A stretch of 64,000 bases of DNA from Salinivirgaceae bacterium (GTDB taxonomy: Bacteria > Bacteroidota > Bacteroidia > Bacteroidales > SZUA-534): the NCBI GenBank assembly GCA_050179685.1, contig JBFXEW010000007.1, positions 79,223-143,222 of the forward strand. The letters are read 5' to 3'. Below are positions 32,468 through 38,115 of this stretch, in pieces. The notes beneath the pieces are model-generated. The model was not told where the DNA came from, did not search any database, and saw nothing but the letters and a program-made list of their open reading frames with translations. The position numbers were made by a program, and so were the translations under genes. Every line of letters begins with the position of its first letter. The first letter of the stretch is position 1.

Positions 32468-33286
32468 TTAGCTTGGCTCTTGTTGCGAAGTATTCAATTG
32501 GTTCTTAATTCCTTTAATATCCTCCTGAATGTTTTTTATTCGTCGCAATAATTCAACCTGCGTGGCGGAACCTTCCGGCAACTGGTGGCTTATGAAATTG
32601 GTAAATTTCCATATTTCACTCACCTGATGCACATGAACCGTATAAGATTTGTAGTCTGCATTTAAAGAATGCAAAACCATTGTGCCATCTTCGCTTAAGC
32701 GATTCTCAATTATTTTAAACACCAGCCCCTCGTCCAGGGTACAAACTATACAGGCCAGACCATCGGATAGGGTGCTCCAGTCCACAACAAATTCACCGGT
32801 AACCCATGCGCCATCAGGAATGGGCAGCATACTGTCGCCCTTTAGCTGAAAGGTGCGGAATTTTTTATTTTCTGGTAAAAAAGGCATCTGAAATACCGGG
32901 AGCTTCTCAATAAACTCAGGATCGGCAAAACCACGCGTATAACCCGCTTTGGCTTTTTCGGTAACCAGTTCAATATTCTCGCGGTTTACTGCATTTACCG
33001 TAGTGGCAAGTACCCTAATCTGACCTCCCCGAATATACACATCCTGGCCCCGCTCAATCTGCGAAAGCATACTTTCCGACAAACTACTTAAATCGACACG
33101 CACCAAGGTGTCGAGCGAAACTCCATAATAATCGGCAAACTGCAACAGGGCATCAATACCGGGCTTGGCTACCTGATTTTCGTATCCACTCAGTGTCGGC
33201 CTTTTCATCTGTAAAGCAAAAGCCACATCGTCCTGAGTACGGCCTTTACGTTTACGCAACAACTTAATATTCTGACTAAAAAACAT
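32468..33286 (-). CDS. XRE/CI-like HTH + S24 peptidase repressor (non-canonical LexA type)
   Basis: N-terminal HTH 'TQDDVAFALQMKRPTLSGYE', Ala-Gly cleavage site 'KAGY', catalytic 'GDSM' Ser and 'VFK' Lys. Confidence 0.85.
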   Translation of the reverse strand: MFFSQNIKLLRKRKGRTQDDVAFALQMKRPTLSGYENQVAKPGIDALLQFADYYGVSLDTLVRVDLSSLSESMLSQIERGQDVYIRGGQIRVLATTVNAVNRENIELVTEKAKAGYTRGFADPEFIEKLPVFQMPFLPENKKFRTFQLKGDSMLPIPDGAWVTGEFVVDWSTLSDGLACIVCTLDEGLVFKIIENRLSEDGTMVLHSLNADYKSYTVHVHQVSEIWKFTNFISHQLPEGSATQVELLRRIKNIQEDIKGIKNQLNTSQQEPS

Positions 33287-33311
33287 TGCTTCCGTTTATT
33301 TAATACATAAG

Positions 33312-33689
33312 TTAAAACATTCCATGCTCGTTCACAGAGTTGGCAGGAATTTCCTGTACCAAATCCCATAACTCCACAATCTTATCGGCACTAAAGCGAA
33401 AGATATGAACCACAGCAAACCCCCTATCCTCAGCATTTTGTTGAATGTGCGCGTGTACTGCTACCCAATCGCCATCGTGCAAAACATGCTGAATGGTAAA
33501 TACTTTGTTTGGAAACGCTGCCGCGTCGGCTTCCATAGCCTTACACAGCGATTCGGCATCGCCTTTAAAACCGGTATTATGGTGCTTAAATCCCTCGCCA
33601 ACATATTTATGAAAAGCCTGGCGGGGATTCCCTTTTACAATAAGTTCAAGAAACGCTTTTGCTGATTCTTTAATGCTTTGTGTGTTCAT
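33312..33689 (-). CDS. SnoaL/NTF2-like small protein
   Basis: 'FKHHN', 'HDGDWVAVH' and 'VHIFRFSADKIVELWD'. Confidence 0.8.
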   Translation of the reverse strand: MNTQSIKESAKAFLELIVKGNPRQAFHKYVGEGFKHHNTGFKGDAESLCKAMEADAAAFPNKVFTIQHVLHDGDWVAVHAHIQQNAEDRGFAVVHIFRFSADKIVELWDLVQEIPANSVNEHGMF

Positions 33690-33809
33690 AGTACTTATTT
33701 TTATTGCTTTACTTCCAGCTTAGCCAACTCCTCAGGTCTGATTTTTAAGAATCCCATCCAAAAAACTGCAAAAATAACTGATCAAACTATTTTAAATATT
33801 CGCTCTATT

Positions 33810-33850
33810 GATTATATTGTAATCTGTATTTTGATTAATAACTAATCAAA
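33810..33850. promoter_or_regulatory. Two tandem palindromic operator candidates GATTA-N5-TAATC
   Basis: GATTAtattgTAATC (33810-33824) and TTTGATTAataacTAATCAAA (33830-33850) lie in the divergent repressor/dinB intergenic region. Confidence 0.7.
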
Positions 33851-33878
33851 GGTAGGGAAAAATAACAAGTAAACAAAT
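33847..33878 (-). promoter_or_regulatory. Leftward promoter (TTTG-20-TACCTTTG) for snoaL-repressor
   Basis: Both elements with canonical spacing. The -7 box overlaps the second palindrome. Confidence 0.65.
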
Positions 33879-33895
33879 AGTAACGCTTTATAATT

Positions 33896-35047
33896 ATGCA
33901 GATTGCGAACAAACAGATTGTTCACCTGGACTTAGACACCTTTTTTGTATCGGTAGAACGCCTTGTTAACAGCCGGCTGGTTGGGAAACCGGTTATTATT
34001 GGTGGCTTGTCGGACCGGGGCGTGGTAGCAGGCTGTAGTTACGAGGCCCGCCGATACGGTGTGCATTCTGCCATGCCCATGAAAATGGCCCGGAAACTTT
34101 GCAGCCAGGCGATAATTATCCGTGGCGATATGGATCGTTACTCAAGATACTCACATTTGGTAACCGATATTATAGCAGAACGGGCTCCGTTGTACGAAAA
34201 AGCATCGATTGATGAACACTACCTGGACATTACCGGAATGGACCGCTTTTTTGGCTGCCTTAAATGGACTCAGGAGCTCCGCCAGACTATTATCCGCGAA
34301 AGCGGACTGCCCATTTCGTTTGGCTTATCGGTAAACAAAACGGTTTCAAAAATTGCTACCGGCGAGGCCAAACCCAACGGCGAACTAATGATAAACGTTC
34401 CGGATATTCCTCCCTTTCTGGGGCCCTTGTCGATACGCAAAATACCGATGATTGGTCCTAAAACTTACCAACTCCTTCGTTCAATGGGGGTTCTTACCAT
34501 AAAATCGTTGCGTGAGATTCCTCCGGGAATGGTAGAAAAAGTGCTCGGAAAAAACGGAAGAATCCTTTGGAAAAAAGCCAACGGTATCGACCCGACTCCC
34601 ATACAACCGTACACCGAACAAAAGTCAATGAGTGCCGAACGTACTTTTGAGCAAGACACCATCGACATGGTTATACTAAACCATACCCTGGCAGCTATGG
34701 TAGAAAAATTATCGTTTCAATTGCGAAAAGAACAAAAACTTGCATCGGTAATTACCCTTAAAATACGATACGCCAATTACGACACCCATACCCTACAAAA
34801 AAAAATGGCGTACACCGCATTCGACCACGTACTGCTCGAAACAGCCAAGGAATTGTTTACCCGACTGTACGACCGACGCATGTTGATACGCCTGATTGGA
34901 GTAAAGCTTGGCGGCCTGGTTCACGGTGCCCAACAGCTAAACCTGTTTGAAGATACCCCGGAAATGGTTAACTTGTACCTGGCTATGGACAACATTCGTA
35001 AACGTTACGGTGTTAAAGCAGTACGCAAAGCGGTTGGTTTTTATTGA
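33896..35047 (+). CDS. dinB: DNA polymerase IV (Y family)
   Basis: 'HLDLDTFFVSVE', 'SYEAR' and 'SIDE' catalytic motifs intact; 'LKIRY...T' little-finger region. Confidence 0.93.
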   Translation: MQIANKQIVHLDLDTFFVSVERLVNSRLVGKPVIIGGLSDRGVVAGCSYEARRYGVHSAMPMKMARKLCSQAIIIRGDMDRYSRYSHLVTDIIAERAPLYEKASIDEHYLDITGMDRFFGCLKWTQELRQTIIRESGLPISFGLSVNKTVSKIATGEAKPNGELMINVPDIPPFLGPLSIRKIPMIGPKTYQLLRSMGVLTIKSLREIPPGMVEKVLGKNGRILWKKANGIDPTPIQPYTEQKSMSAERTFEQDTIDMVILNHTLAAMVEKLSFQLRKEQKLASVITLKIRYANYDTHTLQKKMAYTAFDHVLLETAKELFTRLYDRRMLIRLIGVKLGGLVHGAQQLNLFEDTPEMVNLYLAMDNIRKRYGVKAVRKAVGFY

Positions 35048-35097
35048 TTGAGAAGGTGAAAATGACAAGTATAAAAACATTGAGATAAATAATAAGT

Positions 35098-35886
35098 ATG
35101 TGTGGAAGATATATTCAGGTAAAAAACGTACAGGTTATTGAAGAACGCTTCAATGTAAAAGTACCCGATGGCCTGGAGCTTACTCCAAACTTTAATGTAG
35201 CTCCCGGCGATTTTGCTCCCGTAATAACCAGCGATAAACCCAACGAAGTACAATTGTTTCAATTTGGGCTTACTCCTTTTTGGGCGAAAAAGCCCATGTA
35301 TTTATTCAATGCCCGCGCTGAAGGCGACCATAACAAAGAAAACGCCATCCACTACAAGGGAGGTAAAGATATTATCAACAAGCCGGCATTTCGAAAACCC
35401 ATCCGTAGTCAGCGCTGCCTGGTAATTGCCGATGCTTTTTACGAAGGAACAAGCACCGACAAGCTAAACAAACCTTATGTGGTTTATCTAAAAGGCAAAC
35501 AAGGCCCCTTTGCTTTTGCAGGCATCTGGGACACCTGGGTAAACAAAGAAAGCGGCGAAGAAATCAATTCGTTCGCCATTATTACCACTATGGCCAACAG
35601 CCTGATGCAAAAAATTCCACACCACCGCTCTCCCATTATTCTACCCCGCAAGCGCGAACAAACCTGGCTCAACAGCAATGCTCCCCTTACCGATATTACC
35701 CGTATGCTGGAACCTTTTCCCGGTGAGTTAATGAATGCCTATCCGGTAGCAAGTCGGGTAAAAGATTCCAGGATTAAAGGCAAAGAACTGATTACCCCTA
35801 TTGGTCAACCGCTCTTTTCTGATGAAACATTTAAGGAAAATATTACGCTGGAATTACACGGAATGGGGCATTATAAAAACAAGTAA
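35098..35886 (+). CDS. SOS response-associated peptidase (SRAP/YedK/HMCES family), abasic-site protection
   Basis: N-terminal MCGRY with catalytic Cys2, 'FNARAE', 'RCLVIADAFYE' and 'HHRSPIIL'. Confidence 0.92.
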   Translation: MCGRYIQVKNVQVIEERFNVKVPDGLELTPNFNVAPGDFAPVITSDKPNEVQLFQFGLTPFWAKKPMYLFNARAEGDHNKENAIHYKGGKDIINKPAFRKPIRSQRCLVIADAFYEGTSTDKLNKPYVVYLKGKQGPFAFAGIWDTWVNKESGEEINSFAIITTMANSLMQKIPHHRSPIILPRKREQTWLNSNAPLTDITRMLEPFPGELMNAYPVASRVKDSRIKGKELITPIGQPLFSDETFKENITLELHGMGHYKNK

Positions 35887-35911
35887 GCACTTGCCGTTTA
35901 AAAGCACAAAA

Positions 35912-35938
35912 AAAGCCACCCCATAACAGGATGGCTTT
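35912..35938. terminator. Terminator between convergent SRAP and mutB
   Basis: AAAGCCA-13 nt-TGGCTTT with an upstream A-run. Confidence 0.65.
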
Positions 35939-35961
35939 AACTTATATCAACTGAAGTAATT

Positions 35962-38115
35962 TTATTCGATGGTTTTCAGTAGAATCTCCAGTATCTGAAC
36001 TGCGGCTTTCGACACTGAAGTTCCCGGTCCAAAAATACCTACTACGCCAGCATCGTAAAGGAATTTATAGTCCTGTGCGGGGATTACTCCTCCGGCAATA
36101 ACCATAATATCTTCACGTCCCAGTTTTTTCAATTCGGCCATTACAGCAGGAACCAGGGTTTTATGTCCGGCAGCCAGCGACGATACGCCCAGCACGTGCA
36201 CATCGTTTTCAACGGCATCTTTGGCAGCTTCCTCGGGGGTTTGGAACAAGGGTCCCATATCCACATCGAAACCTATATCGGCATAACCTGTGGCAACTAC
36301 TTTGGCCCCACGGTCGTGTCCGTCCTGGCCCATTTTGGCTATCATAATCCGGGGCTGGCGACCTTCTTTTTTAGCGAAGGCAGCACAAAGCTCCTGTGCT
36401 TTTATAAAATTCGAATCGCTTTGCGATTCGCTGGAATATACTCCTGAAATTGATCGTATCACTGCTTTATACCTCCCTACAACTTTTTCGCATGCATAAG
36501 AAATCTCACCTAAGGTAGCCCGTTGTTTAGCTGCTTCAACAGCCAGCTCCAACAAGTTCCCTTTGCCGGTTTCAACGCAGCGGGTTATGGCATTTAATGC
36601 CTGCTGAACTTCCTGCTCGTTACGATTGGCTTTTAATTCGGCAATTCGCTTGATTTGTGATTCGCGAACCGCGGTATTGTCTACTTCAAGAATCTCCAAA
36701 GGATCTTCTTTCTCCAGACGGTATTTGTTTACACCAACAATAACCTGGGCTCCGGAGTCAATTTTTGCCTGAGCACGAGCAGCTGCTTCTTCAATACGCA
36801 TTTTTGGAATGCCGGTTTCAATGGCTTTCGACATGCCTCCTAATTCTTCAACTTCTTCAATCAGTTTCCAGGCGCGTTGTGCTATTTCGTGAGTCAGGCT
36901 TTCCACGTAATACGAGCCAGCCCAGGGATCGATGGAACGGCAAATCTGAGTTTCTTCCTGTAAGTAAATTTGTGTGTTACGGGCAATCCGTGCCGAAAAA
37001 TCGGTAGGCAGCGCAATGGCTTCATCCAGGGCGTTGGTGTGCAAACTTTGGGTATGACCCAGTGCAGCACCCATGGCTTCGATACAGGTACGACCCACAT
37101 TGTTGAAGGGGTCCTGCTCGGTTAAGCTCCAGCCCGATGTTTGCGAGTGGGTACGCAGAGCCAGCGACTTGGGATTTTTCGGGTTGAACTGAGCTACCAG
37201 TTTGGCCCAAATCATCCGGGCAGCACGCATCTTGGCAATCTCCATAAAATGATTCATTCCCACTGCCCAGAAGAACGACAAACGTGGGGCAAAAGCATCG
37301 ATGTCGATTCCGGCTTTAATACCTGTACGCAGGTAATCGAGCCCGTCGGCCAGGGTGTAGGCCATTTCAATATCGTTGGTAGCACCCGCCTCCTGCATAT
37401 GGTATCCCGAAATGGATATGGAATTAAATTTAGGCATGTACTTCGAAGTGTATTCAAAGATATCGGCAATGGTTTTCATTGAGAATTCCGGCGGAAAAAT
37501 GTAGGTGTTCCGCACCATAAATTCCTTTAGAATGTCGTTTTGAATGGTTCCGGCCAGTTCTTCCAATTTAGCTCCCTGTTCCAGGGCTGCCACTATGTAA
37601 AAGGCCATAATGGGCAACACAGCACCATTCATGGTCATGGAAACCGACATTTTATTCAGCGGAATCTGATCGAACAGAATTTTCATATCCAAAACCGAAT
37701 CGATAGCCACACCGGCTTTACCCACATCGCCAATCACCCGGGGATGATCGGAATCGTAACCACGGTGCGTGGCCAGATCGAAAGCTACCGACAAACCTTT
37801 TTGTCCGGCAGCCAGGTTACGGCGATAAAAAGCATTCGATTCCTCGGCTGTTGAAAAACCGGCATACTGGCGCACGGTCCAGGGACGCATGGCGTACATC
37901 ATAGAGTAAGGGCCCCGCAGGAAAGGAGCAATTCCGGCAGCATAATTTAAATGCTCCATGCCTTCCAAATCTTCTTTCGTGTAAACGGGTTTTACAGGAA
38001 TCTGCTCCGGGGTTAACCAGGTTTTTTGAGCGTTCCCCCCTTTTGTATTTTGTTTTTCAGTGACTCCTTCATTCTGAAGGCTTCTGAAATCTATTGTCTT
38101 AAAGTTTGGTCTCAT
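35962..38115 (-). CDS. scpA: Methylmalonyl-CoA mutase, catalytic (large) subunit
   Basis: '[13 protein letters not shown]', 'ISISGYH', 'QSLHTN' and B12-binding 'GQDGHDRG'. Confidence 0.97.

What the first reader, a model, noticed from the sequence alone, without database searches (positions are those of the whole stretch)
32468..35886. Self-contained DNA-damage cassette with a readable candidate operator (GATTA-N5-TAATC x2)
Seen: a CI-like HTH/S24 repressor (Ala-Gly site, Ser/Lys dyad) is divergent from dinB-SRAP. The intergenic DNA has two copies of one palindrome, 23 bp centre to centre (33810-33824; perfect 8-bp arms at 33830-33850). The second overlaps the -7 box of the leftward promoter, the geometry of autorepression. 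Known: Bacteroidota use non-canonical LexA proteins of this architecture, and SRAP shields abasic sites. Inference: this is the SOS box of this lineage and may be a motif not yet catalogued. I did not see it upstream of uvrA or recJ in this window, which suggests a narrow translesion/abasic-site regulon without dnaE2.
Basis: partly seen in the sequence, partly recalled or inferred. Interest (0 to 1): 0.72.

Follow-up and report, generated by a model that had tools for sequence, protein, structure and literature searches.

The report
Variant SOS operator of Bacteroidales LexA-like repressor
Two copies of a short palindrome between a phage-type, probably self-cleaving repressor gene and an error-prone polymerase operon are very likely the repressor's binding sites; this is a known kind of Bacteroidetes DNA-damage switch that uses an uncatalogued recognition sequence conserved across many families.

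Summary
GATTA-N5-TAATC occurs twice in the window (33810-33824 and 33833-33847), 23 bp centre to centre. These two sites are also the two best matches in the whole 4.56 Mb genome.

The repressor (HTH_3 + peptidase S24; Ala114-Gly115, Ser152, Lys191; C-terminal helix) belongs to the 'non-canonical LexA' family of Bacteroidetes (Sanchez-Osuna et al. 2021, PMC8565304). In a tree it forms a well-supported subclade next to the published CTAA-N5-TTAG group.

In 33 orthologous loci from many GTDB Bacteroidales families the same tandem operator is kept. Spacing is 23 bp in 27 loci and 24 bp in 6. One operator is fused to the TAnnTTTG -7 box of the repressor promoter. The other appears to contain the -7 element of the dinB promoter.

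GATTA-N5-TAATC is not among the motifs listed in the 2021 paper, so this is a new specificity variant of a known system, not a new kind.

In this genome the regulon is only the two divergent operons, SnoaL-like gene + repressor and dinB + SRAP. recA, a second Y-family polymerase, an exonuclease and a relocated dnaE2 orthologue have no site.

Binding, self-cleavage and damage induction are inferred, not shown.

The parts
32468..33286 (-). Non-canonical LexA-type repressor, 272 aa. It has an XRE/CI-type HTH (residues 7-61), a linker with cleavage site Ala114-Gly115, an S24 domain with Ser152 and Lys191, and a terminal helix at about 243-268.
   Evidence: Pfam HTH_3 7.1e-14 and Peptidase_S24 4.8e-05. 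The catalytic residues are invariant columns in the alignment. It is 44% identical to the C-terminal domain of P. actiniarum WP_025606010 and lies in a clade with 99/99 support. The AF2 model shows the helix at 243-268. Foldseek top hits are LexA C-terminal domains and XRE HTH domains.
33312..33689 (-). SnoaL-like (NTF2-fold) protein, 125 aa, first gene of the leftward operon.
   Evidence: Pfam SnoaL 4.9e-12 and SnoaL_2 2.5e-10. Relatives have other small genes or nothing at this position.
33810..33824 (.). Operator 2, GATTATATTGTAATC. It is distal to dinB's ATG. Its spacer is conserved across relatives (GATTAyAATaTAATC when read toward the repressor).
   Evidence: It has the top weight-matrix score in the genome, 20.4. 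It is conserved in 33 loci.
33833..33847 (.). Operator 1, GATTAATAACTAATC. The 8-bp arms TTTGATTA/TAATCAAA span 33830-33850. It is fused to the -7 box of the repressor promoter.
   Evidence: Weight-matrix score 19.6, second in the genome. TAnnTTTG ends on the first G of this operator in 23 of 33 loci.
33847..33854 (-). The -7 box TACCTTTG (Bacteroidetes TAnnTTTG type) of the leftward promoter for the SnoaL-like gene and the repressor.
   Evidence: Read from the sequence. The column consensus TA--TTTG lies directly upstream of operator 1 across 33 loci.
33874..33877 (-). The -33 element TTTG of the leftward promoter, 19 nt upstream of the -7 box.
   Evidence: Read from the sequence. In relatives a TTG at this position peaks at spacings of 19-21 nt.
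33813..33820 (+). Candidate -7 element TATATTGT of the rightward dinB-SRAP promoter, inside operator 2. This is inferred. The -33 region in this genome is weak (TTTT).
   Evidence: The operator 2 spacer is conserved as TAwATTrT. A TTG lies 19-21 nt upstream of it in 19 of 33 loci, with the peak at 20 nt. In some relatives dinB's ATG is only 7-23 nt from operator 1, so the promoter must lie within or beyond the operators.
33896..35047 (+). Y-family DNA polymerase IV (DinB), 383 aa, with catalytic acidic residues present (DLDTFF, SIDEHY).
   Evidence: Pfam IMS 1.8e-42 and IMS_C 4.6e-24. NCBIfam PRK02406 scored 281 bits against a cut-off of 256. Motifs read.
35098..35886 (+). SRAP/YedK-type abasic-site peptidase, 262 aa, with the N-terminal Cys2 (MCGRY).
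   Evidence: Pfam SRAP 1.5e-51. N-terminus read.
35912..35938 (.). GC-rich hairpin between SRAP and the convergent methylmalonyl-CoA mutase-like gene. It is the likely terminator that closes the cassette.
   Evidence: RNA fold of 35887-35961. A convergent ORF lies at 35962-38115 (-).

Best explanation
The locus is a DNA-damage-inducible translesion and abasic-site cassette controlled by a Bacteroidetes-type non-canonical LexA.

Proposed mechanism. Repressor dimers bind two 15-17 bp operators, T-GATTA-N5-TAATC-A, whose centres are 23 bp apart. That is about two helical turns, the same spacing as adjacent lambda CI operators, so binding is probably cooperative. Operator 1 begins at the last base of the TAnnTTTG -7 box of the leftward promoter, which drives the SnoaL-like gene and the repressor. 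It covers that promoter's start site, giving autorepression. Operator 2 contains the likely -7 element of the rightward dinB-SRAP promoter, and operator 1 lies just downstream of that start site. The two operators therefore shut both overlapping divergent promoters together. After DNA damage, RecA-ssDNA filaments would trigger self-cleavage at Ala114-Gly115 by the Ser152/Lys191 dyad. The repressor would then leave the DNA and both operons would be expressed.

Shown here by computation:
- the protein's family membership and intact catalytic residues;
- the presence, uniqueness and strong conservation of the tandem operator and of its fusion to the -7 box;
- restriction of the motif to this locus in this genome.

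Inferred, not shown:
- binding of this protein to these sites;
- cooperativity;
- the transcription start sites;
- RecA-dependent cleavage and damage induction.
For: - Family membership. The domains are HTH_3 + S24. The residues in KAKAGY, GDSM and VFK are invariant and match the published family alignment. A terminal helix follows the S24 domain, as the paper describes for the family. In the tree the group is a 99/99 clade inside the Bacteroidetes family, next to the CTAA group and separated by a long branch from LexA, UmuD and CI.
- Motif statistics. There are 2 sites in the window against 0.05 expected. They are the two top weight-matrix scores in the genome.
- Conservation. In 33 loci, with repressors 49-79% identical, the tandem sites are 23 or 24 bp apart in the repressor upstream region. 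That region is the repressor/dinB intergenic region in 27 of the 30 loci fetched from the order sample.
- The perfect tandem pattern occurs in 31 of 301 genomes of the order and the reversed control pattern in 0 of 301. All 31 also carry a repressor homologue, compared with 146 of 301 overall.
- Promoter geometry. TAnnTTTG ends on G1 of operator 1 in 23 of 33 loci, and the -33 TTG peaks at 20-nt spacing for both promoters.
- More distant homologues (36-41% identity; L007, L008) instead carry CTAA-N5-TTAG pairs and have a different recognition helix, RxxIGxYEEG against KRsTLSGYEN.
- For relatives in the same family, the 2021 paper showed binding by EMSA and induction by mitomycin C, including a diverged TTAC-N5-GTAA operator with a divergent error-prone polymerase gene.
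Against: - There is no experimental or transcript evidence for this organism.
- The Pfam S24 match is barely above its cut-off (23.5 against 23.3 bits). The AF2 model of the C-terminal domain has only moderate confidence (mean pLDDT 65.7).
- The candidate dinB -7 element (TATATTGT) departs from TAnnTTTG, and the -33 region in this genome is weak.
- The recognition helix and the operator do not covary perfectly within the clade. L003 has TLNNYEN yet keeps GATTA.
- recA has no site, so this is not a global SOS regulon here, and 'SOS box' may overstate its role.
Confidence: 0.8

Rival explanations
1. The palindromes bind a different regulator encoded elsewhere, and the adjacent S24 repressor acts on other DNA.
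For: No binding data exist. AT-rich palindromes are common in Bacteroidetes intergenic DNA. Single GATTA-type matches occur elsewhere in the genome at background level.
Against: - The tandem site travels with this repressor clade. All 31 genomes with the perfect tandem carry a homologue.
- In 33 loci the site lies directly upstream of the repressor operon and is fused to its -7 box.
- Distant homologues carry a different motif together with a different recognition helix.
- tblastn found no paralogue of the repressor and no canonical LexA in the genome.
Confidence: 0.05
2. The repressor binds the operators but does not respond to DNA damage. It would be a constitutive or otherwise-signalled local regulator, for example cleaved by another protease or controlled by an anti-repressor.
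For: - recA and the other repair genes tested lack the motif.
- The regulon is a single locus.
- The S24 score is marginal.
- Other XRE-type repressors, such as ImmR and DdrO, are inactivated by dedicated proteases. ImmR and DdrO N-terminal domains are among the closest HTH structures.
Against: - The Ala-Gly site and the Ser/Lys dyad are invariant across 9 homologues down to 37% identity.
- The controlled genes are classic SOS-core functions: dinB, dnaE2, SRAP and an exonuclease.
- Family members were shown to be induced by mitomycin C.
- No protease gene is adjacent.
Confidence: 0.1
3. The cassette belongs to a prophage or mobile element, and the repressor is its CI-type immunity repressor.
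For: The N-terminal domain is CI/XRE-like. NCBIfam gives a weak hit to the phage RstR family (43.8 bits against a cut-off of 80). Flanking genes differ between this genome and its closest relative.
Against: - No phage or integrase genes flank the cassette.
- No full-length homologue was found in 50,697 phage records. The best hit covers 52% at 38% identity.
- The repressor-dinB pairing is kept in 27 of 30 loci across many families.
- The repressor clade broadly tracks the order: 105 of 209 genera have a homologue.
Confidence: 0.03

Closest known systems
Non-canonical LexA of Bacteroidetes, CTAA-N5-TTAG group (e.g. Pontibacter actiniarum WP_025606010.1; Sanchez-Osuna et al., NAR 2021, PMC8565304)
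   Same: - It has the same architecture: XRE/CI-type HTH, linker with Ala-Gly, S24 Ser/Lys domain and a terminal helix.
- It has the same operator design, a 4-5 bp dyad with a 5-bp spacer, often in two copies.
- It is autoregulated and controls error-prone polymerases and SRAP.
- The C-terminal domains are 44% identical, and the two groups lie in the same superclade.
   Different: - The arms are (G)ATTA/TAAT(C) rather than CTAA/TTAG.
- The recognition helix is TLSGYEN rather than xIGxYEEG.
- It forms its own 99/99 clade.
- The regulon here is one locus without recA, whereas the published CTAA regulons include recA, recN, ruvB and umuDC.
- It is found in lineages that GTDB places in Bacteroidales. 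The paper reports its two groups as absent from the (NCBI) order Bacteroidales.
Elizabethkingia anophelis regulator WP_078407279.1 with the diverged operator TTAC-AAATT-GTAA (same paper, Fig. 8)
   Same: It is a diverged member of the CTAA cluster with an altered dyad but the same N5 spacing. It lies opposite an error-prone polymerase gene, and both genes are induced by mitomycin C. It is the direct precedent for motif drift in this family.
   Different: That operator is a paralogue-specific variant in one family (Weeksellaceae). The GATTA class is the conserved operator of an orthologous clade found at 47-79% identity in more than 100 of 301 sampled genomes, with a fixed tandem geometry. GATTA-N5-TAATC is not listed in Table S10. 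The nearest entry there is ACTA-TAATT-TAGT for one Draconibacterium regulator.
Phage lambda CI at OR1-OR2-OR3 (general knowledge, not tested here)
   Same: It is a CI-type HTH + S24 repressor. Its 17-bp operators lie 23-24 bp apart centre to centre between divergent promoters. It is inactivated by RecA-stimulated self-cleavage.
   Different: The locus is chromosomal and not a phage. There are two operators, not three. The promoters overlap face to face with Bacteroidetes -33/-7 elements. There is no evidence of positive autoregulation.
Canonical LexA (PF01726 winged HTH + S24)
   Same: It plays the same functional role and has the same S24 self-cleavage chemistry. Foldseek's top hits for the model are LexA C-terminal domains.
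   Different: The DNA-binding domain is different: there is no LexA_DNA_bind match. The published structure comparison also finds the family's N-terminal domain dissimilar from LexA's. tblastn found no canonical LexA in this genome.

Membership tests
Bacteroidetes non-canonical LexA (Sanchez-Osuna 2021) | N-terminal multi-helical XRE/CI-type HTH (PF01381) instead of the LexA winged HTH | tested here: met
   HTH_3 7.1e-14 at residues 7-61, with no PF01726 match. The PDB profile search hits only XRE-type HTH domains. The AF2 N-terminal domain has pLDDT about 90 and is all-helical.
Bacteroidetes non-canonical LexA (Sanchez-Osuna 2021) | C-terminal S24 peptidase domain with an Ala-Gly cleavage site and a Ser/Lys dyad | tested here: met
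   Peptidase_S24 scores 23.5 bits against a cut-off of 23.3. A114, G115, S152 and K191 are invariant. They correspond to KASAGY, GDSM and VFK/VYK in the paper's alignment. Foldseek top hits are LexA C-terminal domains.
Bacteroidetes non-canonical LexA (Sanchez-Osuna 2021) | Terminal alpha-helix after the S24 domain | tested here: met
   The AF2 model has a helix at 243-268. The paper describes this feature for the family.
Bacteroidetes non-canonical LexA (Sanchez-Osuna 2021) | Falls within the family clade, apart from LexA, UmuD and CI | tested here: met
   In the maximum-likelihood tree of 63 C-terminal domains, the family is separated from the outgroups by a starred long branch. The GATTA group is a 99/99 clade beside the CTAA group.
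Bacteroidetes non-canonical LexA (Sanchez-Osuna 2021) | Palindromic dyad-N5-dyad operator in its own promoter (autoregulation) | tested here: met
   Tested in silico only. Two dyad-N5-dyad sites overlap the -7 box and start region of the repressor operon, and this is conserved in 33 loci.
Bacteroidetes non-canonical LexA (Sanchez-Osuna 2021) | Operator sequence CTAA-N5-TTAG or GGA-N5-TCC | tested here: not met
   Neither published motif occurs in the intergenic region. The operator is GATTA-N5-TAATC, which is absent from Tables S8 and S10. This defines the two published subgroups, not the family.
Bacteroidetes non-canonical LexA (Sanchez-Osuna 2021) | Controls error-prone polymerase genes | tested here: met
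   Tested in silico. The operators lie 48 bp upstream of dinB here. dinB is divergent from the repressor in 27 of 30 loci, and tandem operators lie upstream of dnaE2-type genes in relatives.
Bacteroidetes non-canonical LexA (Sanchez-Osuna 2021) | Broad SOS regulon including recA | tested here: not met
   The best weight-matrix scores upstream of recA, the dnaE2-type gene, the second Y-family polymerase and the exonuclease are all 0.1 or lower, against about 20 for the two operators. The paper itself reports small regulons in some clades.
Bacteroidetes non-canonical LexA (Sanchez-Osuna 2021) | Specific DNA binding, RecA-dependent self-cleavage and induction by DNA damage | not testable with these tools
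   This needs EMSA, cleavage assays and expression data.
Prophage CI-type immunity repressor | Encoded within a prophage, with close homologues in phage genomes | tested here: not met
   There are no phage genes nearby. The best phage hit covers 52% of the protein at 38% identity.
SRAP / YedK (PF02586) | SRAP domain with the N-terminal catalytic Cys2 | tested here: met
   Pfam SRAP 1.5e-51 across the full profile. The protein starts MCGRY.
DNA polymerase IV (DinB) | IMS palm and little-finger domains with catalytic Asp/Glu | tested here: met
   IMS 1.8e-42 and IMS_C 4.6e-24. NCBIfam PRK02406 scores above its cut-off. The DLD and SIDE motifs are present.

The most novel reading that the evidence does not exclude
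GATTA-N5-TAATC may define a third, widespread specificity class of the Bacteroidetes non-canonical LexA family. It would be the main class in the lineages GTDB places in Bacteroidales. Homologues at 47-79% identity occur in more than 100 of 301 sampled genomes, and some homologue in 105 of 209 genera.

On this reading the repressor is not a global SOS regulator. It is the dedicated switch of a portable mutagenesis and abasic-site cassette (dinB with or without dnaE2, SRAP or an exonuclease). The cassette would be built on a fixed bidirectional module in which two operators 23 bp apart are interleaved with the -7 elements of two overlapping divergent promoters.

In this genome the cassette has lost dnaE2 to an unregulated site. 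That would uncouple the dnaE2-type polymerase from damage control.
Probability: 0.55. Interest if true: 0.5.

Novelty: new variant of a known kind. Interest (0 to 1): 0.42.

Why it matters
The 2021 description of the Bacteroidetes SOS system rested on two operator motifs and reported its regulators as absent from Bacteroidales. This locus and its relatives show a third conserved operator class. It comes with a clear weight matrix, a defined promoter-operator architecture and a large clade of cognate repressors.

That has three uses:
- DNA-damage regulons can be predicted in many uncultured marine, sediment and gut-associated Bacteroidia.
- It offers a natural test case for how a CI-type recognition helix and its operator change together (CTAA to ATTA).
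- It shows that in some lineages inducible control is confined to translesion and abasic-site functions and does not extend to recA.

This extends a known system; it does not overturn anything.

Tried and rejected
- Wider regulon in this genome. Exact-pattern and weight-matrix scans found no further credible site. The other exact matches I examined lie mostly inside ORFs or at gene ends, and the next-best matrix scores (17-18.6) are at or just above the reversed-genome control maximum of 17.6, single, and not next to repair genes.
- Published motifs at this locus. CTAA-N5-TTAG and GGA-N5-TCC are absent from the intergenic region.
- dinB promoter in the 8-bp gap between the operators (TGTATTTTG). 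It looked plausible here, but the gap sequence is not conserved in relatives, so I rejected it in favour of the conserved element inside operator 2 with a -33 TTG 20 nt upstream.
- Transcript evidence for start sites or induction.
- Solved structures by sequence. Only the HTH domain matched. The AF2 model had moderate confidence (pLDDT 65.7), so I used the fold search only to confirm domain types.
- Strict covariation of recognition helix and operator within the clade. It is not clean (L003, L005, L006), so I do not claim it beyond the contrast between the GATTA and CTAA groups.
- Later literature. A search for papers since 2021 found none that describes this motif. The library is not complete.

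Full report
**1. Observation.**
GATTATATTGTAATC lies at 33810-33824. TTTGATTAATAACTAATCAAA lies at 33830-33850, with its core at 33833-33847. The centres are 23 bp apart.

GATTA-N5-TAATC occurs only at these two places in the 64 kb window, against 0.05 expected; none of 100 shuffles gave two matches. In the whole 4.56 Mb assembly there are 13 exact matches. That is no more than other spacer lengths give, and 10 of the other 11 I examined lie mostly inside ORFs or at gene ends. So there is no genome-wide enrichment. The signal is the pair at this locus.

The ORFs are as follows:
- a 272-aa HTH_3 + Peptidase_S24 protein, 32468-33286 (-);
- dinB, 33896-35047 (+);
- SRAP, 35098-35886 (+).

The cassette is closed on both sides by convergent genes, and a hairpin follows SRAP.

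**2. What the repressor is.**
Sanchez-Osuna et al. (NAR 2021, PMC8565304) described 'non-canonical LexA' proteins in Bacteroidetes. These have a CI/XRE-type HTH, an S24 domain and a terminal helix. They bind GGA-N5-TCC or CTAA-N5-TTAG, and a diverged member binds TTAC-N5-GTAA.

The window's protein matches the paper's own C-terminal alignment motif for motif: NIELV..KAKAGY..GFADPEFIE.LP, GDSMLPI, VFK, EIW and the terminal helix. In an alignment of nine homologues, A114-G115, S152 and K191 are invariant. AF2 gives a confident helical N-terminal domain, a beta-rich C-terminal domain of moderate confidence and a helix at 243-268. Foldseek's top hits are LexA C-terminal domains and XRE HTH domains.

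I built a maximum-likelihood tree of 63 C-terminal domains: 34 from this clade, 13 published CTAA-group, 10 published GGA-group, 3 low-identity homologues, and LexA, UmuD and CI. It places the window's protein in a 99/99 clade inside the family, beside the CTAA group and far from the GGA group. tblastn found no paralogue and no canonical LexA in the genome.

**3. Conservation of the operator.**
A homologue occurs in 146 of 301 sampled genomes of the same GTDB order. More than 100 of these show 47-79% identity. In 27 of the 30 loci fetched from that search, dinB is divergent from the repressor.

In 33 loci the repressor upstream region contains two GATTA-N5-TAATC sites, with at most a few mismatches. 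They are 23 bp apart in 27 loci and 24 bp apart in 6. Reading toward the repressor, the column consensus is:

TTG (-33), about 20 nt, TAnnTTT|GATTAaaattTAATCA, tttTTt--, GATTAyAATaTAATCA, about 17 nt, cAAg.

The perfect tandem pattern is found in 31 of 301 genomes, usually once per genome. The reversed control pattern is found in none. All 31 of those genomes carry a repressor homologue.

More distant homologues (36-41% identity; L007, L008) carry pairs of CTAA-N5-TTAG instead. Their recognition helix also differs: RxxIGxYEEG against KRsTLSGYEN.

**4. Promoter-operator architecture (inferred from conservation).**
- *Leftward promoter (SnoaL-like gene and repressor).* A perfect Bacteroidetes -7 box, TAnnTTTG, ends on the first G of the dinB-proximal operator in 23 of 33 loci. 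A -33 TTG lies 19-21 nt upstream. In the window these are TACCTTTG (33854-33847, minus strand) and TTTG (33877-33874). Operator 1 (33833-33847) therefore covers the start site of this promoter.
- *Rightward promoter (dinB-SRAP).* The spacer of operator 2 is conserved. Read toward dinB it is TAwATTrT, and a TTG lies 19-21 nt upstream of it in 19 of 33 loci, peaking at 20 nt. In some relatives dinB's ATG is only 7-23 nt from operator 1, so the dinB promoter must lie in or beyond the operators. The best reading is that operator 2 (33810-33824) contains the -7 element of this promoter (TATATTGT, 33813-33820), and operator 1 lies just downstream of its start.

Two operators thus serve two overlapping divergent promoters. 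The 23-24 bp spacing equals that of adjacent lambda CI operators (general knowledge), which suggests cooperative binding of two dimers. This is not tested.

**5. Regulon.**
A 17-bp weight matrix built from the orthologous sites ranks the two window operators first and second in the genome (20.4 and 19.6; reversed-genome control maximum 17.6). The next hits are single, not next to repair genes, and at or just above that control level.

The following have no site within 300 bp upstream, with best scores of 0.1 or lower:
- recA (contig C36);
- a second Y-family polymerase (C24);
- a DnaQ-like exonuclease (C28);
- a dnaE2-type gene (C20:77623-80565).

The C20 gene is 82% identical to the dnaE that directly follows dinB-SRAP in the closest relative, L001, whose repressor is 79% identical. 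In other relatives a separate tandem operator lies directly upstream of dnaE2-type genes (L049, L051, L052, L064, L070). The exonuclease often follows the repressor gene.

So the ancestral unit is repressor + dinB with dnaE2, SRAP or the exonuclease. This genome keeps only dinB-SRAP under control. The small genes between operator and repressor differ between lineages: SnoaL-like here, a membrane protein in L001, four-helix-bundle or GxxExxY-type genes elsewhere.

**6. Comparison with what is known.**
The system is of the published kind. The operator sequence is not. GATTA-N5-TAATC appears neither as a main motif nor in the paper's list of diverged dyads (Table S10). The Salinivirga regulator in their Table S9 has no predicted site in Table S8. 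The paper reports its two groups as absent from the (NCBI) order Bacteroidales. The lineages found here are mostly what NCBI would call Marinilabiliales and uncultured Bacteroidia.

A literature search for later work found nothing on this motif. Earlier notes of this scan describe similar variant operators in other genomes. One reports twin GATTATA-N-TATAATC palindromes upstream of a dnaE2 unit, which fits the dnaE2-linked operators I found independently.

**7. Rivals.**
- A different regulator binds the sites. The motif and the repressor clade co-occur too tightly for this to be likely.
- The repressor does not sense damage. This is possible but disfavoured by the invariant cleavage site and catalytic dyad and by the nature of the controlled genes.
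- The repressor is a prophage immunity repressor. There is no phage context and no full-length phage homologue.

**8. Verdict.**
This is a new specificity variant of a known system, with a well-resolved conserved architecture. Interest is moderate. Binding, cleavage and induction remain to be shown experimentally.

Noticed in passing
window 33312-33689 (-): A SnoaL-like (NTF2-fold) gene is the first gene of the repressor operon. Relatives have unrelated small genes at this position (a 107-aa membrane protein in L001; four-helix-bundle or GxxExxY-type proteins in L016, L028 and L031) or nothing. The slot between operator and repressor seems to collect passenger genes, which would then be damage-inducible.
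   Followed up: partly
genome contig C20:77623-80565 (outside the window): A dnaE2-type polymerase gene is 82% identical to the one that follows dinB-SRAP in the closest relative (L001). Here it stands alone behind its own TAnnTTTG promoter (TATTTTTG) with no GATTA operator. It appears to have left the cassette and its regulation.
   Followed up: partly
loci L049, L051, L052, L064, L070 (relatives): In several genomes of the order a second perfect tandem GATTA operator lies directly upstream of a dnaE2-type gene, away from the repressor locus. The regulon is therefore larger than one locus in those genomes.
   Followed up: partly
loci L005, L006, L007 (relatives): More distant repressor homologues are paired with a radical SAM DNA-repair-type gene instead of dinB. 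L005 seems to use yet another dyad (GACCA-N5-TAGTC-like).
   Followed up: no
genome contig C13:93460-93500 (outside the window): A longer palindrome, GGCCATCGCGATTAATTTGTAATCGCAATGGCC, lies between a heavy-metal-associated-domain gene and a membrane protein gene. It contains the GATTA motif by chance and looks like a separate hairpin or operator.
   Followed up: no
locus L004:3840-3900: The long 5' leader of the repressor gene in this relative contains a C-rich/G-rich inverted repeat (CCCACCCCCCATCCCCCCTCCCTCAAGAGGGAGGGGGG) of unknown role.
   Followed up: no
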